A stretch of 64,000 nt of DNA from Eledone cirrhosa (Eukaryota): positions 311,736,001 through 311,800,000 of the forward strand of contig OZ024743.1 of NCBI GenBank assembly GCA_964016885.1, written 5' to 3'. The position numbers and the translations under genes were made by a program. Positions 8,197 through 61,471 of this stretch are shown in pieces (the first letter of the stretch is position 1; every line of letters starts with the position of its first letter). Under the pieces are notes generated by a model. It saw only the letters and a list, made by a program, of their open reading frames with translations. It ran no database searches and was not told the DNA's origin.

Positions 8197-8688
8197 AAAG
8201 TTTTATTTAAAATTGTTGGGTTACAACGAGTAAATATTTTATAACTGATATAAAGCACTCAACAAGTTTTGGAGTAGATATACGATATTAAACAAATGGA
8301 AACTATATTTATAAAACCATATTTATTTCATTATACATATTTCAGGGATACCATATTAAAAATATGGCATGCCTTCTTCAGATAAAATACAATATATAAG
8401 CAGTTTTATAAATAAATTTGACGTACCATAAATATTGATCAACTTCCATTTGAGAAGTTGGTTTGGTAGTGAAATGTTTATAAATATTTAGTGTTAAGCA
8501 CAGTTAGAAAGAAAGACGGAGAAAAGGAAGAAATGTATGTAAAGAAAAACAAAGAGAGATAGAGAGAGATATGGGAGAGAGAAATAGTGAGGAGGTGAAA
8601 AATGAGAGGCAGCTGAGGCAACAGATGAATAATAATAATTCATCATACAAATTGAGAGATTTAGGAGGGAGGGAGTACTGTAATTATT

Positions 8689-12277: not shown

Positions 12278-12384
12278 TCAAAACTCCGGATGAACAAAAA
12301 CCGTGGAGTGCTTTACAACTGTTAAGAAAAATCAGCAGATTTTCAATCAACCAACTTTCTTCAATTGAATAAAAAACATTTATG

Positions 12385-12429
<45 letters not shown>

Positions 12430-12440
12430 TAGAATTGGTG

Positions 12441-12562
12441 CTCTCCCCGTGTTTGCTGAAATTAAAGTAAGTGAGTCTGTCACTACTCTAAAACAATAGC
12501 ATAAGGTCTTCAAAATGCTTTTAATTAAGCATAAAGTGTATTGCAAATACACTATATATACA

Positions 12563-12568
<6 letters not shown>
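12441..12568 (+). mobile_element. 3' fragment of retrozyme-like family B
   Basis: Near-identical to 21415-21540 and ends ACATTCA-(TA)n. Confidence 0.75.
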
Positions 12569-12648
<80 letters not shown>

Positions 12649-13261
12649 TATGTGTATATATATATACATATATACATATATATAAATATATATATATATA
12701 TATAAAATATTAAAAAAATAATGAATAAAACAATGAAACAGTTCCTTATATTAAACAAAAAAAGTTCATTATTTAACGATCGTTTCTAGGACATATATGT
12801 GTTAGAATTGGCATGCATATTCAAAAGATCTATGTACAAAATTATACAAACTATCAAAGAGAATATACATACCATCACATATATATGCTGTCTTCAGAAA
12901 TAATGAGGTATATTTATTGATAATAACAACAATTCAAAATTACAGGTCTGTTTGGGAACAGATTTTAAATAGACCAATGAAATACATAAAAATTCATCAA
13001 GAAAATACAGTTAGGTGTGTGTATATATGTAAGTAACTTCGTTCACAGATATGCATAAAAATGAATGTTCACATGCATACGCATGTCGAAAAAGTGTATG
13101 TAAATATAAAAATTCAGGGCTAATGTCTCTGTATGTTTATAATCCACAGACAAAATATACATACATATACATATACATATACACACATATATACACACAT
13201 ATACATACATTCATACACACACGCGCATATACACATAAACACACACATACCTACGAACACA

Positions 13262-43702: not shown

Positions 43703-46700
43703 CTACAGAACAATGTAGAGAGAAGGCCCATTTACACGAGCCATTCTCGCTTCTTTCACCCACCTTTCATAAAACTGTCTGGGGCCAAGCACTTCTCTCT
43801 CCATCCTGATCCTTCTTCCGAAGTGGTATCGGAAGAAGTAAACCAGGTGATGGCCGGAGAGAAAGTCACCCGACCTCAGACCTTTCAGGCGCGTCCACCA
43901 CACAACCTCTTTCATCATGGCTATTACGCACAGAAAGACCGCCTCTGCTTCGTTTCTGAAGGGAGGCGGCGGCTTGATGTTCACCACAGACTCGGCGGTT
44001 AATCGAATCGGCGCCACACGCGACAGCAGTCGTTCGACGTAGCCCCACAGATCGGCAACGCCCGGGCAGTGTACCAGTGCATGCGCAACGGTTTCCTCGT
44101 CGCGCACGCATCTGGGACAGATCTTTTTCGCTGGATCCCTGCCCGGGCGCCCGTGTCTGTAGAGCTTTTCTCGAACGGGCAGAGCCCCCCGGTAACACTG
44201 CCAGGCTAGGGACCTCTGGAAGTTGTCCATGGGTCCCGGGCCGAAAGTTCTACCGAACAGGCTGGCCAGTTCGTCCTCCTCCATGCCTAGCGACTCTCCA
44301 AGGGTGTCGTCGCCCCTGCTAGCCACCAGCCCTCTATAGAATGTCGAGGTGGATTCTCCACTGACAGTCGGGTCCGCTTGCCAGATAGCCGTGAGCGCCT
44401 GGGCACACTCGGTGTGCCAGTTGCCCAGTTTTCTCGGTCTTTGCTTCACCCAGGATTGCAGCTCGGTGAGCGAGACGAGCTGTGGGAAGGCTCGCCTCAC
44501 AAACGGGGCCCACACCGGCTGACCGGTGAGGAATACCTGTAGATGCCGTAGCCTCAATGCGTGCCTACGCATCAACAGCCACGGCATACCCAGCCCTCCT
44601 TTCGAAGGGTGCTGGCAGCAGATGGATCTCCTCACCATGGGAGGCCGCTTCTTCCAGAGGAACTGGAAGAGCATGCGTTCCATGATGGTGATCTTTTCCT
44701 TGGGGCAAGGCACGACGGTCAGGCGGTAGCAGATGACGGACGCTATGTAAGCGTTCGTCACCTCCGCCCGACCTTTCAGTGATAGTTTGCACTTGGCCCA
44801 CTTCTGGGTCAGCGCAAACACCCTGCTCGTCACCTCGCCCCAATTCTTCTCCACCTGGAGGTCCGGTCCGAACCAGACCCCGAGCAGCTTCACCGGGCCC
44901 TCCGTCCACCGCCCGACGACACCGTCTAACGGCATCGGTTTGCCCCTCCACGTTCCGAGTTGCAAACCGAAGACTTGTCCCGGTTCAGCCTAGCCCCCGT
45001 CAGCCTTTCGTATTCCTCCAGTAGGGTGGCGATCGCCCCGATTTCCGAGGCGTCCGCCACCATTACTGTTACGTCGTCGGCATAGGCCGAGACCGCTTTG
45101 TGCAATCCCGGTTCCAGGGGTATGCCCCGCAGCAACTCCAACTTCCGCAGCAGTGGCTCGAGAGTCAATACGTACAGAAGGGAGGAGAGGGGGCACCCCT
45201 GTCTGATGGACCGGGTGATTTGAAACGGCTCCGAGAGGTAGCCGTTTACTTTAATCCTAGAGTAGATGTTGCCACTGTGCATGGCAGAAATCCAGCCCCT
45301 GAAAATCGGTCCGAAGCCCGCCGCCGCTAGCACCGCATCCAGGTAACCATGGTCGACCCTATCGAACGCCTTAGATTGATCCAAGTTGATCAGGGCCCCA
45401 CCAAAGCCGGGTTCGTTGCCAACCCTCTCTATGATGTATCGCATGAGGTGGAGGTTGTCGTGAATGGACCTGGACGGGATAGCGCATGTCTGCGCGTCTC
45501 CCACCAAACCACCCACCACAAGCGCCAACCTCTTCGCCAACACCTTGGCCAAAATCTGTAACTCTGCATTCAGCAGAGTTATGGGCCTAAAGTTACTTAA
45601 GTCGTCCCCCTTGCTCTCGTCCTTCCTCACTAGCGTGACCACGCCCTTGGTCACAGAACAGGAAATTCTCCCGTTCTGTTGCCAGTTGCAATAGACAGCC
45701 TCGAGGAGTTCGGAGAACAAGACCGGCATAGCTAAATAAAGTTCGTATGGTAGACCATCGAGACCCGGAGATTTGCGTCTGCTGCATTGGCTGAGCGCTT
45801 CCCCGATTTCAGTGGCTGTGATTGGCCTTTCGCAGCACTCCGCTTCGCCGCTCGAAAGACGCGGTAGACCGTCGAGGTATGGACCGAAGTCCACATCCCC
45901 GTCCGGCCCCCCCCGCCCGCTCCGAACAGTCGAGCAAAGTGCCTTTGAAAGGCCTCGCACATCCGCTCAGGTTCAAGGATCACCCGTCCATCCTGGTCTC
46001 GCAAAGACCGAATGGTGGATTTAATCCCACTCTTGGCTTCTGTCACGCGGGCCCAGCTAACAGCTTTGGTCCCCTCGTTTCCTAAAGCACGTATTTTACT
46101 TCGGACAACGCAGCCTTCGTGCTTCGCGTCAAAGAACTGGCTCAACGCCGTTCTCGCCGCTAACACTCTGGCTACGTCTCCGCTCCTAATCGCCTCTTCT
46201 AGTTTATCTGTTAACTCCCTTTCCTTCCTATTTCTATTCGCCGCTAGTTCCTTACTGTAACCTATCGAACTTACTCTAATCTCTCTCTTTAGAGATACCC
46301 ACCACCTACTGTTGACAATCGCTCCCCTCAACCGCATCTTAACTAAGCTACTAATCCGGTTCCTGTAATCTTTCTTTGCCGGCAAGGACAAGTTCATCTT
46401 CCAGTAACCGGGACCCTGTCTATGCCTTCTATCAAGGTTGACCACGCAGGTCACTAATTTGTGATCTGAATAGCCAACCATGATCAATTCTGGACAACTA
46501 AATACGTCCCTATCCTTACTCCTAACCAAAAACCTATCTAGGTACGATCTAGATTGTCCACTGCGGTTTGCCCAGGTCCAGGTTGGCGCAGTTGGACAAT
46601 CTAGTCGAAATCTATCGACCAGGTCGAATCGATCGAGTAACCCCTTGAGGCTGCTACACCCCCCTCTATCGGGACATGCCCCTGCATAGTCCCAACGCGC

Positions 46701-47138
46701 ATCTAGGATTCCATTCCAGTCCCCCACTAAAAGCAGGGAACGCGACGTTCCTAGAAAAGTCTCCAGACGCTGGAAGAAGTCGGCTCTCTCAGCCCCGAAG
46801 GGGGCATAAAGACCGACCAGTCTGAAAGCCCCGCCTTCACCGCCTCCGACGTCCAGCACCAGTATTCGACCCCCCGGGTCCGAGTGAACAATCTGTACGT
46901 CGAGAGCCAGACGTTTATCCAGCAGTACGGCAACTTCCCCCCCCCCCCCGCCTCCGGGTTGACAGAGAGATGCGTGCATCTCAAAGTCATCGAAGGCGGG
47001 AGCCAGCTGTCGCACGCTGCTGATCCGACTCTCGCAAACAACCATCACATCTATACTTCGTGACCTGAGGTCACTTAGTAGCTTTGCTTGCTTCCAAGCT
47101 GAGCCCAGGCCACGCGCGTTCAAACAGCCAACTCTCAA
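43703..47138 (-). pseudogene. LINE ORF2: APE endonuclease, RT and CCHC domain, two frameshifts (~45905, ~44960)
   Basis: CLNARGL, GDWN, SYLDRF, SDH, GPGYWKMN, KSPGLDG, FRPITLLN, DQSKAFDRV, IRQGCPLS, YADD, C..C..ET..H..C. Confidence 0.95.
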
Positions 47139-47143
47139 TTGAT

Positions 47144-48936
47144 CTATTTTGGTGTTGAAAGTGAAGAAAGAAAAGCACTTACCTCTCCGGGTTGTGTAAT
47201 TTCCATGGCGTCAGGTGTGTTGGGTGGAGGGATGTTTTGTGGTGGTGTGGGGGTGCCCGAGTGTGGTTGGGTTGGGGTGTTTGGAGTTGTGTCAGGGAGA
47301 GGGGAGGTTATGGGGAAATCTTTCAAGAGGACGCGATTTAACGGTTTTAAACAGGGGGGGCTCACGTCCTGTCTAAATTGTTCTTTTAAGGAACGATAAA
47401 GGTCCAGAGGGACCTTTATCATTTTTAAATGGGTGAAGTTCTCTGTTGAGATAAAGTTTGGCCCTTCGGTCTGCACCAAAGGGCTAGTGTTTATTAATTT
47501 AAACAGTTTTTGTTTTCTTTATTTATATATGTGTATTGCAATGTCTTTTTTTTTGATGCTGTCAATGTTTCGGAGAGGGGAGGCGCAGATTTATTTTTGT
47601 TTGTTGAGGGTGGGGTGTTTTTTATTGGAGTTGGTGTTTGTGTGTGGGTTATTTGTGGTGTGCTGGGTGTGTGCTTTCTTTTTTTTCTTTTAACTTGTCT
47701 GAAGGCTTCTCCTCCTTCTTCTTCAGAAGTTGGGGGAAACTCTTCAGCGCTAGGTGGGAGGGACGTCGTGTCTGGTTGTTTTTTTTTGCGGGAGGGGTAG
47801 ATTTGTTGCTGTTTTTTTTATTATTTGTTTGGAATGCGTTTTGTGGTGGTGGGGGTGCTGTTTGTGTCGTGCTTGTGGTTGGTAATGGTGGTGATGATTT
47901 TTGTGTCGAGCTTGTGTTTGCTGCTGGTGGTGGTGATGTGCTTGGTGGTGTTTGTATTTTGTTTGCTGTGTGTGGTATTAGTGTATTTTTGGAGGTGGGT
48001 GGTGTTGGTGTACTGTTTGTGGTGGGTGTGGGCAATAGTCCTTTTTGGGGGACACGTTTCGGGCAGTTAGCCTTAATGTGTCCCCTTTCCATGCATAAAT
48101 AGCATGCTGGTCTTCTCCCCTCTACAATTATATCTATTGGGGTGAGCTCATCCAGCCAGATGCGATCCGGGATTTGTGCTATTCTTTCGGGCCTCATTTG
48201 GACTAGTAGGTCGAGGCCCATTCCCAGGAACGCATCTCCGGATGCCTTCCCCATTGACAGCACTGTGTCCTCGCCCATGTCTATGAAGCCAGCAATAGCC
48301 CACCAGAAGTCCATTGTGGGCAGCATTGTTTGTATTTTTACTCTCTGTGTTCTTCTACCCATGTAGGAGGGATAGAAGCTGTATGTTGTCGATGAGAGTG
48401 GGCTTATGGAAAGCTTCTCCGCCGTTTCCTTGTCTTTTGTTAGGACCGAAATGCTGCCATAGAGTCGGTCCTTTCGTATGAAGAGAATATTCTTCATATA
48501 GTCTTTTAGGACCAACTCTATCTCCATTTGGCTGGGCTGTGCTGGCTTTCTTGTTTGGTTTAGGATTGTTCTGAAGAGAACTGTGTTCTCTGTTCTCGCT
48601 TTCTTGAATTCTGGGGGGGGGGCGGTTAATGGAAAACATTCCATTCTCCCCCAAAACAATGTGTTTCTTTGCTTCGGCCAGTTTTTCTCTGGCGGCCGTT
48701 AGGTCAATTGGTGTGTATGTAATGGATTGTTTTGTTTTCTGGGCGAAAGTTGCCCTGTTGTTATTTGTATTATTTTCTGTTTGTTTGTTTTCCGTTTGCT
48801 CATTTTCCTTAACATTTGTTTTTTCATTTTCTTTGTTTGTTTCGTTGTCTAATTTTGTTGTAATTATTTTTTGTTCTTCAGACTTGGGGGGCGTGGCAGA
48901 GCTAATGGCAGACATGTCTGCCATCTTTTCCGCCAT
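47144..48936 (-). pseudogene. LINE ORF1 with zinc knuckle, frameshifted
   Basis: CYLCMERGHIKANC. Split across ORFs 48355..48963, 47649..48659 and 47144..47479, with breaks near homopolymer runs. Confidence 0.8.
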
Positions 48937-49303
48937 GCTGCCAAGAACGAAATTTTTCGGCAAAATTAGATATTTATTTTACCCCCTAAAAAGGGGGTAA
49001 ATGCAAAAATGTTTCCCTAAATAACAGGGGTTAGTGTTCCAAATGTGTTGCACTGAAAAATTTATCCGCTACTTACAATAGTAAGGGTAAATCCCGATGG
49101 AATAGCGGAGCCGATGTGAAGCGTGTCTTACTCTATCAAGATAAATAGATAGATAGGGGTGTGTATGATTGTGTATAGAAGATTATATTAATAAAAGGAA
49201 TTCCAACTTTGTCTGATTTACTCGTTTTATTTACAATCCTTTAAAATTTATAATGGTATTAGAATGAAATAGTATGGTAGAATATTAAATGTTAAGTGTT
49301 AAT

Positions 49304-50465: not shown

Positions 50466-51009
50466 TTCCAGCCTCCTCTTTCTCCTATTTTTTCTTTCCT
50501 AATGAAGGACTAACGTCTGATACGTTGAGATATTGTTTTTCCTCTTCTTTTAAACGTGAAAATAATAAGACTTTGTGTAACTGTATCTCTGTATTTGACT
50601 TTTTTTTCAATTTTGAACTAGATAATATATGTCACTTGTAAGATGGTGAAAAAAAAATGGAGATTTGGCTAGTATTTATAGCAGGTTAACGAACTACGTA
50701 GAAAATCCTTCCCGCTGGCTCACAGAATGGTATTTCATAAAGTTACATAATTTTGGAATTTTCTTATATTTGATTAATGTTTTTACGATATATCTTTCCC
50801 GAAAATTTGTATCAATGCATACTGATATAATTTGGAGATTTAGTAAAATTCTGTAGGGTTTTTTTCTCTTCTTTTCAATATAATGTCCAGCATCGATACT
50901 TGTATCCGAGCAGCAGCCGAGGAGATATGCAACGTCAAGTTTGACAACATAGGGTGGCAACAGGACACTTTACCTGTCAGGTATGGTAACTTAGCCTCCG
51001 GTCCCTGAT

Positions 51010-51870
51010 CTCAATAACTTTGCCAGCGTATCTTTCGTCAGTAACCTCGTGTCGCGTCCTCGTCAGCAGGGTTCTTCAAAACACAACAGAACCCTCTGTG
51101 TTCGGAGAACGTGAGGCCGCTTGTGAGACGTGGGACCGGCTGGGACTTAGCCCAGTAGATGTCCCTCCTCCTTCTCCCCCTGTTGACTTCAAGTCCCCCC
51201 AACGCACTTGGGATGCCATCCAGTGCAGCCTGGCCTCAGACAGGCAAACGCGCCAGCTCAACCAACACCGCCTTGCTTGTTTTCGTGCGGCCTCCAAACC
51301 CCACAGTGGTGCCTGGCTCCATGCCATTCCCTCCTTCTCCACTGGCACACAGCTAGACAACCATAGCCTGCGCATCAGCGTTTCCCTGAGGCTCGGCCTC
51401 CAGATCTGCCAGCCACACCAATGTCGCTGCGGTTCCACCGTGGACTCTCTTTCGGCCTCCACCCGTTTTTCTGTCACCACAGTGCCGGCCGCATTCTACG
51501 CCATACTGCCCTCAACGAGGTCATTAAGCATGGCTTGGGCGCTGCAGGCTTCCCTTCCCAGCTCGAGCCGGTGAGGCTGGATCGAGCGGACGGCAAAAGG
51601 CCAGATGGCATGACCATCTTCCCGTTCCGCGGTGGCAAACCCCTCGTCTAATGCCACTTGCACCGACACTTTCTGCAGCCGCAACCTGGTGCAATCTGCG
51701 ACTGACCCAGGTTCTGCTGCACGTCGGGCTGAGGGGGCCAAACTCCTCAAATACCGGTCGCTCTCCGACAGTTTAGCTGTCGTACCCCTGGCAGTGGAGA
51801 CTTCTAGTGTCCTCGGTCCCAGGGCTACCTCCTTACTCACCACCATGGGCGCTGAGCTGGAGAGCCGCCT
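51010..51870 (+). mobile_element. CRE-like (RLE-encoding) non-LTR retrotransposon 3' fragment
   Basis: SGAWL.A.P..LRLG..C.CG..RH.ALN..EP..DGKRPDG..ATCTDT..AE..K..KY..PLAVET. Confidence 0.8.
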
Positions 51871-52470
51871 GCGACTGCTGGACTAGAAGACAGGCGAGAA
51901 TATATACTTTTCTCGTCTGTGTAAATGAGGTGATTAATCTCATTTGCATATGAAGCTGCATAAGTTGGCTCAACTTATAATAAAAAAGAAATAGGATTTC
52001 GCTTCAAGCATAGCTTTATACAATATGTATAAATATTTCGTATCTCCAAAGAAATACGGTTTTAGGAAGCCGTAGCTATGCAAACACCGGGGGGGTTAAT
52101 GCCCTCTGGTGATGTCCAGCAGAAGCAAGGGGGACAACCGTCTATGCATTTCAGGCTTAACTGGCCTTCGTCAGGACGGTCCCTCCCACCGCTTGCGACT
52201 GCTGGACTAGAAGACAGGCGAGAATATATACTTTTCTCGTCTGTGTAAATGAGGTGATTAATCTCATTTGCATATGAAGCTGCATAAGTTGGCTCAACTT
52301 ATAATAGAAAAAGTAATAGGATTTCGCTTCAAGCATAGCTTTATACAATATGTATAAATATTTCGTATCTCCAAAGAAATATGGCTTCCTTAAACCGTAT
52401 TTCTTTGGAGATACGAAATATTTATACATATTGTATAAAGCTATGCTTGAAGCGAAATTCTATTTCTTTG
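51871..52470. mobile_element. Retrozyme-like family C: 324-bp unit, ~1.6 tandem copies plus inverted partial copy; HHR 52137-52180 (-)
   Basis: GCGACTGCTGGACTAG at 51871 and 52195. Minus strand: ACCGTC CTGACGA AGGC cagttaa GCCT GAAA TGCA TA GACGGT. Inversion at ~52383. Confidence 0.8.
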
Positions 52471-52504
52471 TTATATATATACAGGAAAGATATATATATA
52501 TATA

Positions 52505-53238
52505 TATCAAAGGTATATATTGAGTTAGAAACTCAAAATAGTCTCTTACAATAAAATAGCTGTAGGAAAGAGATTTTTCCGAGCCGTATATTATAATTGA
52601 TTTATTCTTAAATTGAGTCTGGCAAACCCTATTGTCTATAGTTAGTATTCTTTTCACCTTAGCGAATCTGGTCCCTTACGATTTGAATACATATATGTAT
52701 ATATCTGTGTTTGTTTTTCTTTTATATTCAATTATAGTATACGGCTCAGAAAAATCTCTTTCCTAGAGCTATTATATTGTAAGAGACTATTTTTAGTTTC
52801 TAACTCAATATATACCTTTGATACATTCGGCTCCGTTAATTTGTTAAGCTAATTCAAATGTCGAGTAAACCTGGCTGCTATTTTTAGTAGTGTGAGTTTG
52901 TGAGACACGCTAAGTTCAGATACCATGTGTGTTATTATATATACGCACACTATTCAATTTTTTAATATACTTAGAAGCGACCAGGATACTAATTCTTCAT
53001 CCACTGATGAGCAAGAATCGGTATTCCTCTTCACAATTAATTTTGCAAAACAGTATCGCCAAACGCTGTTTGGGTGATTGGTAGTTACACAATTCCGGTT
53101 TGTATTTAATTTCTTGATTTATTCTTAAATTGAGTCTGGCAAATCCTATTGTCTATAGTTAATATTCTTTTCACCTTAGCGAATCTGGTCCCTTACGATT
53201 TGAACACATATATGTATATATCTGTGTTTGTTTTTCTT
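52505..53238 (+). mobile_element. PLE pLTR-like unit with terminal direct repeat, inverted piece and degenerate HHR (52997-53077)
   Basis: 52597-52720 repeats at 53115-53238, and 52506-52588 is inverted at 52740-52823. TCATCCA CTGATGA GCAAGA..TTTTGC AAAA CAG..CTG TT TGGGTGA. Confidence 0.65.
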
Positions 53239-53284
53239 ATATATATATATATATATATATAGTTTTCTCTACCACAGAAGGTGG

Positions 53285-54146
53285 GGTGTCTACGCGCGGG
53301 GAAAACTATTCCCCCAGTACGAAAAAAAGAAATAGACGAATATCTAATTCCTACTTTAATCCATCTTACAACTCGGATGTATCAACCAGTATACCAAAGG
53401 CATTCTTTTCGATCTTGGAAAAGACCCCCCCACCCCCACCCCCGGTAGTAAATACCATAGTATCATTAATAAAAACACAATTAAACTATCATTCTCCACC
53501 ACTCCAAATCTAGCTCGTCACCTAACCATAACGAACAACAAAAAAATTAGAAAGGGTTTCGATACCATTGCATCTGCGGGACACCCGCAGCTACTAGACG
53601 GACCGGATGCGGCGTTACCCAGCAGTATGATCCACACATCCGATGTACGGTTGCCAAATCTAGAACGTACGGAAAACCAAACATCTCCTGTACCGCGGAG
53701 TGACATACACCGCAAATGTAACTGCAGACGAAAGGCTGAGTGCCCCCTGAAGGGGCTATGCCTTATAAACAATATTGTCTACGCTTGTGAAGTTACAACT
53801 CGGACCTCTTCCAAAACATATATAGAGTCTACATCGACCTCCTTTAAGACTAGATACAACTCCCATCGCTATACATTTAGAGATGATAGACTTAAGAATA
53901 CCACATCCCTAGCTAGTTACATATCCCTCCTGAAGAACACTGATATTCAATACAAGCTTGATTAGAGAATCATCATTAAATCATCGCAGTACAGACCCCC
54001 TAGCAAGACCTGTGACCTTTGTCTCTCTGAATCACACGCCATAATATACTCCAAACTGAACCTGCTAAATAAGAAATCGGATATATTCTCTTCTTGCCCG
54101 CACATAAATCTTAGCTCCTTCTATTACTTTAGACCAATTAGCTAAC
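53285..54146 (+). pseudogene. PLE GIY-YIG endonuclease region, degenerate
   Basis: YFNPSYN..CNCRRKAECPLKGLCLINNIVYAC..TYIE..FKTRYNSH..CDLCLSE..LLNKKSDI. Confidence 0.88.
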
Positions 54147-56099
54147 GCTGTAGCACTTACACACCTCCCTCCTGTCAAGCGTACGTAAAACCGCGCCACA
54201 TGGTTCCTGGTTCCTCTGTAACCTTAACTGCCCATCAAGTGTATATGGGCTATTCTTCTATTTCATTTCTCTCTTCCCCTCTCACTTACTTTTTTCTTCC
54301 TCTCTTCCCTAGTTCATCTTATTACCACTAACCAATAACACATAGGGTACAACCTTCTTAAGGCTTTTCCCTATACCTAGCTCAGCTTGACCCTATGCAG
54401 GCACCTACCCACACTAACCATAATGATACGGTTTATAAACGCACCCATTGTGCGCTAACTGATAGCACAGCCTAATAGTCTCTCGAAAGACCAGCAAACT
54501 CCGCCGCAGCTATAAAGCGGATGGTTTGGGCAACCGGGGTCCGGATAGCCTTGACCCTAATATAGTTTAGTGAAATAAGGGAGCAAATCGTGTGGGCTGG
54601 GTGCCCCAGAATCGATCAAGCCCCGGGGGGAAGGAGTGATTGGTCGCCGAGGGGTTTGATTCGAACAAATGACTTGCCCTAAGCGTCCCGTGGATATCTA
54701 ATGAATCCGCCCTTTATGACACGAATTGCCTCCCATACTTTTCATAAGCACACTACGACTTCCTGTATTTATATTCTGACAACCGTTGTGTTTTACTAGT
54801 GAGAAGCTAACCTCTGAAATTTTGAAATTGCTGAATATGAATTGTGCTGCAAATATGATGAATGATAGAACCACACTCAAGGCAGTGTGCGACAGTAGAT
54901 ATTGACTTCCGGTCGACCCAGGAGGGGTCACACCCGACTGTGAATAGATTACAATCTCCGGATTCGGTAATCTACACGAAAACCACGTGGCGGACATGTA
55001 AATAACTTAGTTGTCATAGATAGTTTTAGCCGTGAGCTTTCTATATTTTCTACAGAAATTTGCACCCCCACTCTAATAAACCCGCTTATTATTGTAACCA
55101 CATCTGCTTTTCCTTCACTCTGCCATTGGTAATTCTGGAAGCGGAGTTCTCTGTACACACCTTCTGTATGTGACGGAATAGCCATCACGATTTACATTTA
55201 CAGCGGTATAATTGTATACGGTATGACAACTTGTTTCGATGCCGATTCGGCCTTACAGTGAATTTCACTTGGGACGTTGGCTTGACTGACCGAACGTGAG
55301 GACTTTGGAAGATTGCAGTTGTAGAAGATCACCCCATCTAGCGTCGACTGTGAAGGCAGTCGATTAACTGCCCTTAGTTCTGACGTCACGTTCTGACGTC
55401 AGTAGCTGCGACAATAGCTCTTGGACGATGAGGACTCGGAGACAATAGACGTGCTATCTCTATGCAGTGATCCAAAGGATGATATCACACCATGCGGCAA
55501 TATATGACGACTAAAATATATCCCAGCCTAGGAGCACTAAAGTATTTGAATATATTCTGTAATTGCTCCTATTAAAAAATGTTTCTATAACATAAAATTG
55601 AGGTATGTTCCTTATTCCTTGTTTGACTATGTGCCAGTCAACAATATCCAATTAGACGGGATGACTGACGACAACCCCGCCTAAAGTGGTGACCCTCGAC
55701 GATTAAGTATGAAAATGAAGCCTACTTAATTTCGCTATTCCTTTTAAATTGAAAATTGTTCGTCTTATACAAAAAAAAAGAAAATGTTTTTTTTCAAAAT
55801 GGCTGACTGGCCAGCTAACATTCCCGCACATTGTCTTTCTTCTTCAAATGCAGCCATCTGATTGGCTTAGCCTCGTCACACGACCATATTCTTGTTTGGG
55901 AAAAGAAAGGCGACGCCATCTTGTTTGTTAATGGCTATCTTGTTCCATAGATTCCACCTTTCGGATTTTCGCTGCTATTTCTTGTACTGTGACTGAATTT
56001 CTTTTGCTTGCGGCAACTTTATGGATGTTGAGGGAAAATTGTGCTGTTTTCCCGTCGTTTTGAACATTACTTACTTTTATTCGTCCATGTGGAAATAGA

Positions 56100-56889
56100 T
56101 TGACGATGAGTGGTCCTGGTTTGCCTGCGTTCTCAGGTGATACTAAGCTATGGTTTGCGCAGCTCGACGCTTATTTCGCTGCCAACGAAGTGAAAAACCG
56201 AGCAAAAGCTCAACTTTTTAATAAGTGGTATTCCTTCTTCACTCGCTATATCAGAGAAAGATTTGATTACGAACCCGTCGGCCAGTATTTCCTATGATTC
56301 GTTGCCGGAAGAAATTTTTATAAGGAACAGTCGTTCTGCTGAAAGCAGATTTCGTTCATTGCTGGAGGACGAGTGTCTAGGCGATAGGTCGCCGTCCGAA
56401 TGTTTGCGCCACATTAGGGACCTCAGTGAATCGCCTGAACAGGATAATTCCTTTATTAAAAAATTATTTTTCTCTCGCCTGCCAAACAACGTCCAAATTA
56501 TTTTGGCAAATATAGTGGACACCAGCTCTTTGGAGCAAATTGCTGCCTCCGCGGATCGAATCGTGGAATTTTCTAAAAAGGCTACCACCTCGGACTCGCG
56601 TGTCGCTTCCTCTTATTAAAACCAGCCCGTCTCGACACGCGAGGATGCCATGTTGAAGGCTATTGACGCTTTGACGCAGCAAGTCGCTCGATTATGCAGG
56701 GAGAATAGGCCGTATTCCCGGCGGCTTAGGAGTCGTTCGCGTTCTTTCGCGACTCCACGTTGGCGTACTACTTCGCCCGCCAGCAACCCATCATTGTGCT
56801 GGTATCATGCTACCTTCGCGGATAAGGCAAATCATTGCCGGCCGCCGTGTAATTATTCAGCCTCGGGAAATGTGGACCAGAGTCACTAA
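56100..56889 (+). pseudogene. gag (disrupted)
   Basis: LPAF..LWFAQL..F, LGDRSPS..LR, LF..RLP, ADRI, CWYHATFADKANHCRPPC. Confidence 0.85.
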
Positions 56890-59800
56890 AGGCGGCAAGT
56901 GAACTCTGCGAGACAAAACGGAACCGCCATTTCTTCATTGAGGACTTCCTGTCTGGAAGAGCCTTCCTAGTGGACACAGGAGCTTCGTGCAGTATTTGGC
57001 CTGTTAATACTATGACAGTAACTCCTCCTGAGTCGTCGATCGAATTGCAAGCTGTCAACCAGTCAACAATCAGAACTTTGGAACAGATCTCGCTTCCTCT
57101 TCAGTTCCGAAATCTTCGTCGAGACTTCAAATGGGTGTTCACTGTTGCTGATCTGCCATACCCGATTTTGGGCGCGGACTTCCTGCACCATTTTTCTTTG
57201 ACGGTGGACGTTCGTCACCAACGCCTAATCGACGATATTACTGGTTTTTCTCTTTGTGGCAGGACGACAGAATTTTCTACAATTAGCCCGACTTTCTTTA
57301 TTGCTAACTCTGGAAACTCATATCATGGACTGTTGAAATCGTTCCCGCAACTGACTCATGAAATTTTTAGAGTCACTGATCCAGGGCACGCCACGGAGCA
57401 TTTTATTACTACAACTGGCGCTCCGGTTTTTTCGCGTCTCCGTCGATTGCCAGCGGACAAACTGAAAACAGCATGGTCCGAGTTCGGTCATATGCTACAG
57501 CTCGGAATTATTCGTCCTTCCACGAGCCCGTGGCCATCTCCATTACATATGGTGCCAAAATCTTCTGGCGATTGGAGACCCACTGGAGATTATAGAAGAT
57601 TGAACTCGATGACCGCACCGGATCGGTATCCTATCCCTCATTTGCAGGATTTTGCATCCTCGTTGCAAGGTTGCAACATTTTTTCGAAGCTCCATTTGAT
57701 ACGAGCCTACAACCAGATTCCTGTCAACAGAGATGACATCCTGAAAACGGCTATAATTACGCCATTTGGATCTTTCGAATTTCTCACCATGCCTTTCGGG
57801 TTAAGGAATGCTGCTAGCACCTTCCAGCGATTTATGGATGAGGTCACTCGTGGCCTCGACTTTGTATACACCTACATTGATGACCTTCTTGTTGCGAGCT
57901 CTTCTCCAGAGCAGCATTTGCGCCATCTGGAACTTCTATTTTGTCGTTTGAAGAATTACAATGTTCTGATTAATCCATCAAAATGTGTTTTTGGTTCCGA
58001 ATCTTTAAGTTTGTTGGGTCACGTCACTGACGCTGACGGTATTCGACCTATTCCTGAGAGAGTTAAAGCTATAGAGGATTTGCCTCCACCAACCTCACTT
58101 CGTCAGTTGCGCCAATTCTTGGGGCTGATTAATTTTTATAGGCGGTTTGTGACTAATTGTGCTAAGCTACGGAATTTTGAAAAATTGCCGAAAGAAAAAT
58201 AGAGACATTTCTTTGAATGAAACTCAGCTCCAGGATTTTGAGAGTGCGAAAATTGCTCTAGCCAATGCATCTTTGCTAGCTCACCCAGTGTCCAACGCCA
58301 AGCTTCCGCTTTGTGTTGATGCGTCGGATACTGCCGTGGGCGCAGTTTTGCAGTAAAGTAGGAACGATCAACAGCAACCGTTGGAATTTTTCTCCAGGAA
58401 GCTGAAACCTGCCGAAACCCGCTACAGCATCTTTGGACGGGAGTTGCTAGCTATATATTTATCAGTGAAACATTTTTCGCACATGCTTGAGGGAAGAACG
58501 TTTACTATCTTCACGGACCACAAGCCGTTGACATTCGCCTTGCAAGCAAAGGCAGACAAATACTCGCCTAGAGAAACTAGACATCTTGACCTCATCTCTC
58601 ACAAATGATATTCAACATATTTCGGGTTATATGAATACAGCGGCCGACGCCCTGTCTCGTTTACCGATTACTTCGATCTCGTCGTCGGATGACATAGATT
58701 TGAATCGCTTGGCAGCCGATCAGCCTACCCTCGAATCGTTGGATGTTACATCACCGGAATTTGTAAATTGCAGGATGAAATACCTACCTTTACCGACCGC
58801 AGACGGACGGATCGTCTGCGACGTCTCTTTGGATACGCCACGCCCTTTTGTTCCGTTGAACCATCGTCGAACTCTGTTTCTTGATTTGCACGGCATTTCA
58901 CATTCTGGATCTTCTGCCACATTTCACATCCTGGATCTTCTGCCTCTTAACAGCTAGATTCTTCTGGCCAAATATGAGACGTGAAATTACTGTCTGGTGC
59001 CGTTCCTGTGTTGCTTGCCAGAAATCGAAAGTTCATAGACATATTAAGACTCCTCTTGGTACTTTTAGTAACCCGGACGCCCAGTTTCGCCACATTCATG
59101 TGGACATCGTGAGACCTTGGCCCATCAGCGGTGGTTACAATTACTTATTGACGGTAATCGATCGTTTTTCGCGATGGCCTGAAGCCATCTCCTTGAGGGA
59201 TATCACTGCTGAGACCACAGCGCGTGCCCTTGTGTCTGGATGGATCGCTCGATATGGAGTGCCAACGTCAATTACCACGGACCGTGGAAGGCAGTTTGAA
59301 TCGAACCTCTTCCATGAATTGACGAAGATCATCGGCGCTAAACGCATACGAACTACTGCATATCATCCTGCCTCTAATGGAATGGTGCAGCGCTTCCACC
59401 GACAACTGAAAGCCGCTCTACGGACTTCTCCTGACTCTACGCGCTGGAGCGAGTACCTCCCTATTGTGTTGTTGGGGATTCGGTCAACAATAAAGGAGGA
59501 CCTTGGGTTCACCCCGGCCGAATTGTTATATTGTGCTCCTCTAGCGTAACCTGGGCAAATGCTTGTCCCTGTCGATCTTGCTGAACAAGATCCGCTTTCC
59601 TACGTATCCCGTCTGCGTTCTTATTTTCAGGACCTGCCGCCGATGGATACGAGGAAGCAAACTGTACAATTTGCAGTCTCGAGGGATATTGCCTCGTGGA
59701 CCCATGTGTTTGTGAGAAACGATGCTGTAAAACCACCTCTCACACAACCATACTCTGGACCCTACCGTGTGTTAGCTCGTTCAGAGAAACATTTCACTAT

Positions 59801-59951
59801 AGACATTAAGGGTTCCAGAGAGACGCTTTCGATTGATATACTCAAACGAGCACATTTGGATACAGATGCTATCGCACCTGAGCCACAAACGCCCCCGTAT
59901 TTTTCTTTCGCACACACACCTGCTTCTTCGCCCCCCATCACCAAGATATAA
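56890..59951 (+). pseudogene. Gypsy pol with stops and frameshifts
   Basis: [38 protein letters not shown]. Confidence 0.95.
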
Positions 59952-61302
59952 GACTCGACCCGTTCCGGTCGGAGGGTTCATTGGCCCAAAAAACTGTGTA
60001 GCACGGTATATTTTTAAACTGCTATTGTGCGGTGCTTTAATCCTGTAGTGACTTTTGGAACTTTTAGGAAATTGTATTTACATTTTATTACATTTGTTTT
60101 TTCCTTTCACGTTCTTGCCTGTTCTTGCACGTTCTTGCTTTTTTAATATGTATTTTTGAAATGTTTTGTGCCCTTCATGCTCGGTTGGGCTGATTGCTCC
60201 TTGGTTTGGGATTTTTGCTGGTTGCTAATCGGTTTTTCTACATACATGATTCGATGAACCGATTTTTATTTAATGTTCTAAAAATTTGGTGGGAGGTCAT
60301 GTAAAGATCACGCCATCTAGCGTCGACTGTGAAGGCAGTCGATTAACTGCCCGTAGTTCTGACGTCACGTTCTGACGTCAGTAGCTGAGACAATAGCTCT
60401 TGGACGATGTGGACTCGGAGACAATAGACGTGCTATCGCTATGCAGTGATCCAAAGGATGATATCACACCATGCGACAGTATATGACGACTAAAATATAT
60501 CCCAACCTAGGAGCACTAATGTATTTGAATATATTCTGTAATTGCTCCTATTAAAAAATGTTTCTATAACATAAATTGAGGTATGTTCCTTATTCCTTGT
60601 TTGACTATGTGCCAGTAAACAATATCCAATTAGACGAGATGACTGACGACCACCCCGCCTAAACAGTTATTGCGGACCTGTCGTATTTTCAATTTCCTCA
60701 CTGGAGTGCCGGATGTACAGATACCCTACTTTTCTTCAACTCATCGTACTTTATTTTATTTTACATTTAGGGGTTTATCGCTGACTGCCTATCCGGATAA
60801 ATCCCCGGAGTATATGTTTTGAAAACATAGTGTTACTTCACCTAACGATCGGAACTGGAACCAATGGATGTTGTCCGTAGTGTGCTGATAAGATACGGAG
60901 GATCGACCTATTACATGGCGGTATAACCTTCCTATAGACAATCCTACATGTAAAGCTGCACCAACTATCCTTCTCACAGACTCATGCTTGCAAGATTTCT
61001 TAATCTGCCTGTACATCCTGTATTGTGCTTTGATGTATCTATGCCTTGATGTTTGTTTCTTTTGGTGTTTCTTATTGTTTTTTTTATGTTTTTATTGTTT
61101 TTGATCATGCTGAGTAACACCTTCACTCATTCCTTGCTACCCTCCCCCACCCTCCGTGTCATCTATTGCACCATGTAAATGATAAATTTTTGATGTGATC
61201 TCTGATGTAATTTTTTATGACATTTTTTTATGACATTTTATGACAGTATATGCGTCATGAATTGTGTCTGTTTCTATATAGCGCTGGCCTCAGGACCCCC
61301 TG

Positions 61303-61471
61303 TATATATAGTGTATTTTGCAATACACTGTATGCTTAATTAAAAACATTTCGAAGACCTTATACTATTGTTTTAGAGTAGTGACAGTCTCACTTACTTT
61401 AAATTTTTAACAAACAGGGGAGATAAAGCTGACAGAGCTCTGTTTCGTACTTTTTGGTACTTATCAAAGCT
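61303..61471 (-). mobile_element. Retrozyme-like family B partial copy with intact U3-A8 HHR (61427-61471)
   Basis: Minus strand: AGCT TTGATAA GTAC caaaaa GTAC GAAA CAGAGCTCTG TC AGCT. Confidence 0.8.

What the first reader, a model, noticed from the sequence alone, without database searches (positions are those of the whole stretch)
51871..52470. Third, unrelated 324-bp hammerhead repeat (family C) truncating a CRE-like LINE
Seen: 324-bp period and a canonical HHR, ACCGUC CUGACGA AGGC..GCCU GAAA UGCA UA GACGGU, with palindromic stem III. It is enclosed by TCCAGCAG/CTGCTGGA pairing, with further hairpins (GGCGAGAA/TTCTCGTC, AATGAG/CTCATT, ATAAGTTG/CAACTTAT, TTTATACA/TGTATAAA, CACCGGGGGG/CCCTCTGGTG) and an inverted partial copy. 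No obvious sequence similarity to A or B, yet the size is similar. Inference: independent lineages converge on ~310-325 nt.
Basis: partly seen in the sequence, partly recalled or inferred. Interest (0 to 1): 0.72.

Follow-up and report, generated by a model that had tools for sequence, protein, structure and literature searches.

The report
Penelope-mobilised hammerhead retrozyme, damaged copy
This is one damaged copy of a 324-base non-coding mobile repeat that carries a self-cutting-RNA motif and sits at hundreds of places in this animal genome as two opposed arms ending at two fixed sites, which likely records a Penelope-type jumping-gene enzyme copying one RNA from both sides of a DNA break.

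Summary
In detail: 324-bp period, a type I hammerhead on the minus strand, and the hairpins. Compensatory changes against a 342-nt sister family (C2) support the ribozyme fold. Family C is a dispersed non-LTR retrozyme: 424 exact core matches, about 800 hammerheads estimated, and one free array of about 11 units. It was not the pLTR of an ORF in 59 unselected loci.

Copies carry the Penelope footprint. 85 of 97 outer 3' ends fall at two sites about 47 nt apart, mostly in (TA)n. In 30 of 31 two-armed insertions with both ends canonical, each arm uses a different site. Arms share private variants, and fold-back copying cannot explain 15 of 30. This points to priming from both ends of one break on one RNA.

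Family C is a distant relative of family A, so the similar size is likely inherited. The LINE junction looks like a microhomology deletion. This copy has one hammerhead and is probably dead.

The scan noted the two-armed pattern before in other families of this genome. New member of a known kind; no RNA evidence; driver element unidentified.

The parts
50893..51864 (+). 5'-truncated, frameshifted CRE/SLACS-like LINE fragment; its last ~45 codons and 3' UTR are missing
51865..51868 (.). LINE/family C junction with 3-4 bp microhomology; no (TA)n; non-canonical end at unit position 278
51865..52387 (-). Long arm of the insertion, 523 nt: unit positions 81-324 then 1-278 (numbered from the predicted cleavage site)
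52137..52180 (-). Type I hammerhead: 6-bp stem I, 4-bp stem II with 7-nt loop, 1-bp stem III with palindromic loop; predicted cut between 52143 and 52142; predicted to be active only as a double hammerhead
52115..52207 (-). Helices enclosing the ribozyme (52115-52123 with 52199-52207, plus an inner 5-bp helix)
52015..52033 (-). Hairpin whose loop holds family end site S1 (unit ~120, window ~52023)
51960..51980 (-). Family end site S2 (unit ~167, window ~51976) at the 5' foot of a hairpin
52380..52387 (.). Head-to-head junction of the two arms, 8-bp overlap at the self-complementary stem of unit 68-88
52380..52479 (+). Short inverted arm, unit 69-167, ending at S2; no ribozyme
52480..52508 (.). 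Interrupted (TA)n run, remnant of the inferred target site

Best explanation
This is a damaged copy of a dispersed, protein-free hammerhead repeat (a non-LTR retrozyme) that is likely inserted by the enzyme of a Penelope-like element copying one RNA from both ends of a break in (TA)n DNA. Shown by sequence: unit, ribozyme motif, dispersal, two opposed arms, two fixed outer ends S1 and S2, (TA)n flanks, variable inner ends joined by microhomology. Inferred: copies with two hammerheads in tandem are transcribed and cut as a double hammerhead into 324-nt monomers, probably circularised; a PLE protein, probably a dimer and most likely of the Hydra clade, cuts both strands of (TA)n; one 3' end primes at S1 and the other at S2; both cDNAs run through the cleavage site, stop at variable points and anneal. 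At this locus the S2 arm is intact. The other arm likely lost its outer end (at least 166 nt, including a second hammerhead, if it began at S1) together with the LINE's 3' end in a microhomology-mediated deletion. Odds within this model: circular template about 0.55, uncleaved linear multimer about 0.35, other 0.1.
For: Ends: 85 of 97 outer 3' ends in 59 unselected loci lie in two windows covering 10.8% of the unit; 64 of those 85 abut (TA)4 against 1 of 12 other ends, background 7%. Pairing: 23 of 24 simple two-armed insertions with both ends canonical in the unselected set, and 7 of 7 in 25 further loci, are S1+S2; none is S1+S1 (30 of 31, p 1.5e-8 against 0.5). Shared template: rare variants shared within an insertion, 0.34 (between arms) and 0.38 (between passes) per 100 sites, against 0.06 (max 0.125, 300 resamplings) with other loci. 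Fold-back excluded: in 15 of 30 S1+S2 insertions neither arm is contained in the other. Read-through: of 29 arms whose partner alone carried the search pattern, 24 reached the cleavage site and 2 stopped there. Arm junctions overlap by 1-19 bp in 24 of 34. An autonomous Hydra family here also shows two fixed ends about 95 nt apart, downstream of its hammerhead, running into (TA)n. Hydra motifs (RW, DKT, CxCx5C, CxxC, CxH) and (TA)n targeting match PMC8557442 section 11. Two internal start sites, extension of both DNA strands and a predicted dimer are reported for an anole PLE (PMC11167929). Two hammerhead segments co-fold into the double-hammerhead form, -39.7 against 2 x -18.0 kcal/mol.
Against: No cleavage, transcript or circle was observed here. 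No driver element was identified: none of four Hydra families inspected has a pLTR homologous to C or C2. The S1 and S2 windows were drawn after seeing the end distribution, and exact starts are blurred by AT microhomology. Shared variants could also come from one source locus or from gene conversion between nearby arms. Divergence between passes of one arm equals that between arms (median 5.2% each), which fits a circle but also a homogeneous linear array. The strand opposite the ribozyme folds better (z -10.2 against -6.3; lower energy in 19 of 20 members), which this model does not explain. 20 of 59 loci are single-armed and 5 are complex. In the anole PLE, ribozyme cleavage was not needed for insertion in vitro. 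8 of 9 Xenopus retrozyme dimers did not cleave in vitro. Covariation rests on two lineages; control (a) for the number of covarying pairs was not significant (77 of 500 shuffles).
Confidence: 0.78

Rival explanations
1. Family C is only the pLTR/5' UTR of an ORF-bearing PLE, and the copies are 5'-truncated insertions of that element.
For: PLE pLTRs carry hammerheads and show the same inverted structure (PMC3846280, PMC8557442). One locus, L152, has 1.5 units of C fused in the same orientation to a broken Hydra ORF. Only 150 of 45,936 PLE candidates were scored, so many families are unseen.
Against: Arms continue head-to-tail into the next unit rather than into an ORF; an array of about 11 units has no PLE hit in its flanks (L093). 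In 59 loci, 13 had a PLE protein hit within 4 kb; 8 were inspected and only L152 was contiguous. 19 other copies of that Hydra family show no C sequence, and the copies read far enough carry a different hammerhead. In 123 PLE loci C appears at 3 distinct places, each as a separate insertion.
Confidence: 0.07
2. Same element, but the inverted arm arises by self-priming or fold-back (possibly on an antisense template, as proposed for Penelope) and the second fixed end by endonuclease resolution.
For: Proposed in PMC3846280; the tail was ascribed to EN-mediated resolution in PMC8557442. The antisense strand folds better. Fold-back would explain shared variants.
Against: Neither arm contains the other in 15 of 30 S1+S2 insertions. 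Fixed ends are 3' and ragged ends 5' in the ribozyme sense, the same polarity as in an ORF-bearing Hydra family. The antisense strand has no hammerhead core.
Confidence: 0.08
3. DNA-level repeat (satellite, MITE-like or recombination-spread) in which the hammerhead is a passenger.
For: The L093 array has heterogeneous (84-92%), mosaic units suggesting unequal crossing over. Most copies cannot release a monomer: 8 of 59 loci have two hammerheads in one arm.
Against: Fixed 3' ends with ragged 5' ends, (TA)n targeting and S1+S2 pairing are marks of reverse transcription; the ribozyme stems covary. The L093-specific stem I variant is seen in 1 of 61 cores of the loci (loci chosen by likeness to the window copy), so that array is not the source of most copies.
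Confidence: 0.04
4. The adjacent CRE-like LINE mobilises family C, or C is part of that LINE's 3' end.
For: Direct fusion at 51864/51865; a C2 copy also flanks a LINE copy in L035.
Against: The two are in opposite orientation here; 11 of 11 other LINE copies examined end normally without family C joined in this way; in L035 the LINE interrupts the C2 element.
Confidence: 0.02

Closest known systems
Metazoan non-LTR retrozymes (Cervera and de la Pena 2020, PMC7229834: passages and part 4 of 6 read; Li, Clavereau and Pollet 2026, bioRxiv 10.64898/2026.07.22.740005: parts 1-3 of 5 read, supplements not seen)
   Same: About 300-nt non-coding unit, GC below 50%, type I hammerhead, monomers to multimers, no LTR/PBS/PPT; both papers propose PLEs as the driver.
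   Different: In the parts read, neither describes two opposed arms, two fixed start sites or (TA)n targeting; Li et al. rest the PLE link on co-occurrence and pLTR homology, which was not found for family C. Circles are shown there, not here.
Penelope-like elements: inverted pLTR plus tail (PMC3846280 and PMC8557442, passages; section 11 for Hydra) and anole Poseidon in vitro (PMC11167929, parts 1-2 of 4)
   Same: Inverted 5'-truncated copy, tail at one end only, two internal RT start sites, AT-rich target; Hydra clade inserts in (TA)n and has canonical hammerheads.
   Different: Family C has no ORF; its tail is about 47 nt rather than 30-40; both start sites are AT-rich and could pair with the target, unlike the non-homologous anole site.
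Newt satellite 2 / axolotl HHR_Amex1-type double hammerheads (as described in PMC7229834 and PMC4209133, passages)
   Same: One-pair stem III capped by a palindromic tetraloop, predicted to need two ribozymes.
   Different: Family C has A-U rather than the usual G10.1-C11.1 at the base of stem II (C2 has G-C); mostly dispersed short copies rather than long satellite.
Family A of the same window (310 nt)
   Same: Colinear from the cleavage site, about 59% identity, similar predicted fold, two-armed insertion in (TA)n with two different outer ends.
   Different: A copies here are 99-100% identical long arrays; C copies are about 4% from the majority sequence and mostly 1-3 units.

Membership tests
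Non-LTR retrozyme | Type I hammerhead in each repeat unit | tested here: met
   Core and stems present; core positions 93-99% conserved in a set partly selected on the core; covariation with C2
Non-LTR retrozyme | Head-to-tail tandem units of about 150-1000 nt, non-coding | tested here: met
   324-nt unit; array of about 11 units at L093; the 99-aa frame over the unit has no Pfam match
Non-LTR retrozyme | At least two consecutive complete hammerheads ('active' by Li et al.) | tested here: inconclusive
   Met by the family (8 of 59 loci, plus L093) but not by this locus, which has one
Non-LTR retrozyme | Self-cleavage of the transcript | not testable with these tools
   Only a co-fold prediction
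Non-LTR retrozyme | Accumulation as circular RNA | not tested
   No RNA holder listed; no reads were laid
PLE-mobilised non-autonomous element | Inverted 5'-truncated arm and two fixed 3' ends (tail) | tested here: met
PLE-mobilised non-autonomous element | Target bias matching a resident PLE clade ((TA)n, Hydra) | tested here: met
   64 of 85 canonical ends; Hydra-type ORFs abundant
PLE-mobilised non-autonomous element | Sequence homology to the pLTR of an autonomous partner | tested here: inconclusive
   None with four Hydra families; only a short post hoc motif near S1 resembles two of them; most PLE families unsurveyed
Autonomous PLE (pLTR of) | RT plus GIY-YIG ORF framed by the repeat | tested here: not met
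   0 of 59 loci; one fusion to a broken ORF (L152) whose family has another pLTR
CRE/SLACS-clade LINE (neighbour) | RT followed by a C-terminal restriction-like endonuclease, similar to SLACS/CRE | tested here: inconclusive
   45% to a protein named SLACS; no tree was built; the C-terminal motif assignment is recalled

The most novel reading that the evidence does not exclude
A dimeric Penelope enzyme loads on one small circular ribozyme RNA at two start sites 47 nt apart and copies it from both ends of a (TA)n break, one site per DNA end. The 30-of-31 S1+S2 rule, the shared private variants and the exclusion of fold-back would then be a genomic read-out of the unsolved step that makes PLE inverted repeats and tails. 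Families A, C and C2 would be one old lineage of viroid-like circles that kept its fold while diverging to about 60% identity.
Probability: 0.45. Interest if true: 0.66.

Novelty: new member of a known kind. Interest (0 to 1): 0.42.

Why it matters
The class is known and its link to Penelope-like elements is already proposed in print. What this family adds is countable evidence on how the copying works: a near-strict one-site-per-end rule and a test that rules out simple fold-back, on a 324-nt RNA small enough for the published in vitro PLE assay. It also shows that hammerhead repeats in this genome that look unrelated can be diverged relatives, with natural compensatory variants. The locus itself is a dead fragment, and similar two-armed families were already noted by this scan.

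Tried and rejected
Rfam at gathering thresholds: no match. RNA evidence: no RNA holder listed; four contig-only runs of one study hold the stretch; no reads were laid, so expression and circularity are open. My first label for the autonomous PLEs, Neptune, was wrong; motifs match Hydra. L152 as proof of the driver: one case, no microhomology, equally a deletion; not used. Search for a parent pLTR: four Hydra families, negative; two searches returned only family C copies. A-to-I editing scars: none, A>G 7.5 against T>C 6.8 per 1000. Pile-up of 5' ends at the cleavage site: none, 6 of 103 in a 20-nt window against about 6 expected (set selected on the core). Length difference between S1 and S2 arms: none (medians 280 and 282). 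Shared start motif: 2 hits in 743 kb of flanks, both a second C copy, but the motif was defined post hoc and is only a lead. Literature searches listed no paper on cephalopod retrozymes or on twin priming of PLEs by title or abstract start; subscription papers and supplements were not seen. No earlier scan note matched this sequence.

Full report
Observation. The window is part of a 3.0-Gb animal genome. 51865-52062 repeats at 52189-52387 with an offset of 324, and 52380-52479 is an inverted partial copy. One type I hammerhead lies on the minus strand, predicted to cut between 52143 and 52142. I number the unit from that site. The locus is a 523-nt minus arm (unit 81-324, then 1-278) and a 100-nt plus arm (unit 69-167), joined head to head with an 8-bp overlap. 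The unit folds at z -6.3. Two ribozyme segments co-fold into the double-hammerhead form through the palindromic stem III, the arrangement described for metazoan type I motifs in PMC4209133 (passages).

Family size and layout. A 31-nt core pattern has 424 exact matches against 0 for the reversed control. 21 of 39 cores not needed for selection match exactly, giving about 790 hammerheads; first-look candidate counts were 1811-2285 and may include relatives. I took the first 59 distinct loci listed on contig C1 without further choice, with 4 kb each side. 34 are simple two-armed, 20 single-armed and 5 complex. Arms are 25-633 nt. 8 of 59 hold two complete hammerheads in one arm; the window copy holds one. 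Among the 40 best-scored candidates for a 2.7-unit query only one longer array appeared: L093, about 11 units, 84-92% alike, with no PLE hit in its flanks.

Is it a pLTR? 13 of 59 loci have a PLE protein hit within 4 kb; 8 were inspected. Only L152 is contiguous, C being fused to a Hydra ORF broken before its endonuclease. 19 other copies of that family show no C sequence, and the copies read far enough carry their own hammerhead. In 123 PLE loci (485 kb) C occurs at 3 distinct places as separate insertions. The survey covers four families; one search scored 150 of 45,936 candidates. A parent pLTR is therefore not found, not excluded.

Insertion footprint. 85 of 97 outer 3' ends fall at S1 (unit 113-128) or S2 (154-172); the windows were set after seeing the data. 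64 of 85 abut (TA)4, against 1 of 12 other ends and a 7% background. Among simple two-armed insertions with both ends canonical, 23 of 24 in the C1 set and 7 of 7 in 25 further loci (5 of 30 dropped as duplicates) pair S1 with S2; 10 and 9 insertions had a non-canonical end and were not counted, nor were complex loci. Passes within an insertion share rare variants about six times more often than passes from other loci. In 15 of 30 S1+S2 insertions neither arm fits inside the other, which a fold-back copy would require. Of 29 arms not needed for selection, 24 reached the cleavage site and 2 ended there, so the template was not a cut linear monomer.

Link to PLEs. The intact PLEs fetched carry the motifs given for the Hydra clade, which inserts in (TA)n (PMC8557442 section 11). 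One family shows two fixed ends about 95 nt apart downstream of its hammerhead (2 loci read by eye). Published work describes an inverted 5'-truncated copy with a tail often at one end only (PMC8557442 and PMC3846280, passages) and, in vitro, two internal start sites, extension of both strands and a predicted dimer (PMC11167929, parts 1-2 of 4). PMC7229834 (passages and part 4 of 6) and bioRxiv 10.64898/2026.07.22.740005 (parts 1-3 of 5; supplements not seen) propose PLEs as the driver of animal retrozymes. The model inferred from this is priming from both ends of a (TA)n break on one RNA, one start site per end. Whether the RNA is a circle or an uncleaved multimer is not settled.

Relatives. 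A 342-nt sister family C2 is 86% identical to C. In an alignment of 11 C and 9 C2 stretches, 3 of 4 stem II pairs, 1 of 6 stem I pairs and 1 pair of another hairpin change on both sides between the families. Cells paired and the covariation score beat all 500 shuffles, the count of covarying pairs did not (77 of 500), and the changes are few independent events. C2 bridges C to family A: blastn E 2e-5 at the equivalent position; global z 7.8 (C2-A) and 6.6 (C-A), above all shuffles and rotations. With the ribozyme region removed, z is 5.5 and 3.6; C-A was beaten by the best of 200 shuffles but by none of 500 random flanks; PLE UTR and antisense controls gave z -0.9 to 2.0. Common descent is the likelier cause of the similar size.

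The LINE junction. The neighbour is CRE/SLACS-like. 11 other copies continue for about 45 codons and a short UTR past the junction; that remainder is absent from the window. The join has 3-4 bp of microhomology and no (TA)n. Since the right arm ends at S2, the family rule predicts a left end at S1, at least 166 nt further out and including a second hammerhead.

Against and unexplained. The opposite strand folds better (z -10.2; 19 of 20 members), because several hairpins have A-C mismatches on the ribozyme strand; some of these are kept in C2. No antisense hammerhead and no editing asymmetry were seen. No RNA data bear on the finding. 8 of 9 Xenopus dimers failed to cleave in the preprint, so activity cannot be assumed.

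Earlier notes. The scan had reported two-armed, two-site insertions for other retrozyme families of this genome and nothing on this sequence. I had the inverted pairs and the two end sites before that look-up; the pairing test and the Hydra label followed it and were tested here. Those notes name the host as a cephalopod, which fits the Octopus names among the protein hits but was not tested.

Verdict. Real feature, new member of a known kind, locus probably inactive. Interest 0.42; the mechanistic reading would merit about 0.66 if confirmed.

Noticed in passing
window 8340-8381 (minus): The hammerhead-like motif here matches the pLTR hammerhead of an ORF-bearing Hydra PLE family (L174-L192), so it is probably a truncated PLE end rather than a free retrozyme.
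   Followed up: partly
window 52502-52826 and 53114-53244: Inverted pair of another element ending in (TA)n, with a hairpin motif like that next to the fixed ends of Hydra 5' UTRs; no hammerhead found in it.
   Followed up: partly
window 53290-54140 (+): 3' part of a Hydra-type PLE ORF with GIY-YIG domain; close relatives are numerous.
   Followed up: yes
window 22376-24440: Family A insertion is also two-armed in (TA)n, and its two outer ends differ by about 34 nt.
   Followed up: partly
window 12378-12662, 20982-21636, 61332-61471; L073:1270-1830: Copies of a further family with 80% local likeness to family A, suggesting a wider A/C/C2 lineage.
   Followed up: no
L093 (G000:C2:83920630-83923935): Array of about 11 C units, 84-92% alike and mosaic; all 8 aligned units share one stem I change that is rare elsewhere.
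   Followed up: partly
L152:3600-4462: 1.5 units of C fused in sense to a Hydra ORF cut before its endonuclease: template switch or deletion.
   Followed up: partly
window 43703-48978 (minus): LINE with endonuclease and RT domains, frameshifted.
   Followed up: no
window 55377-60380: LTR-retrotransposon-like element with protease, RT and integrase matches, broken into several frames.
   Followed up: no
L013:2745-3330 (minus): C-terminal fragment of a PLE of a different type from the Hydra families; its clade was not tested.
   Followed up: no
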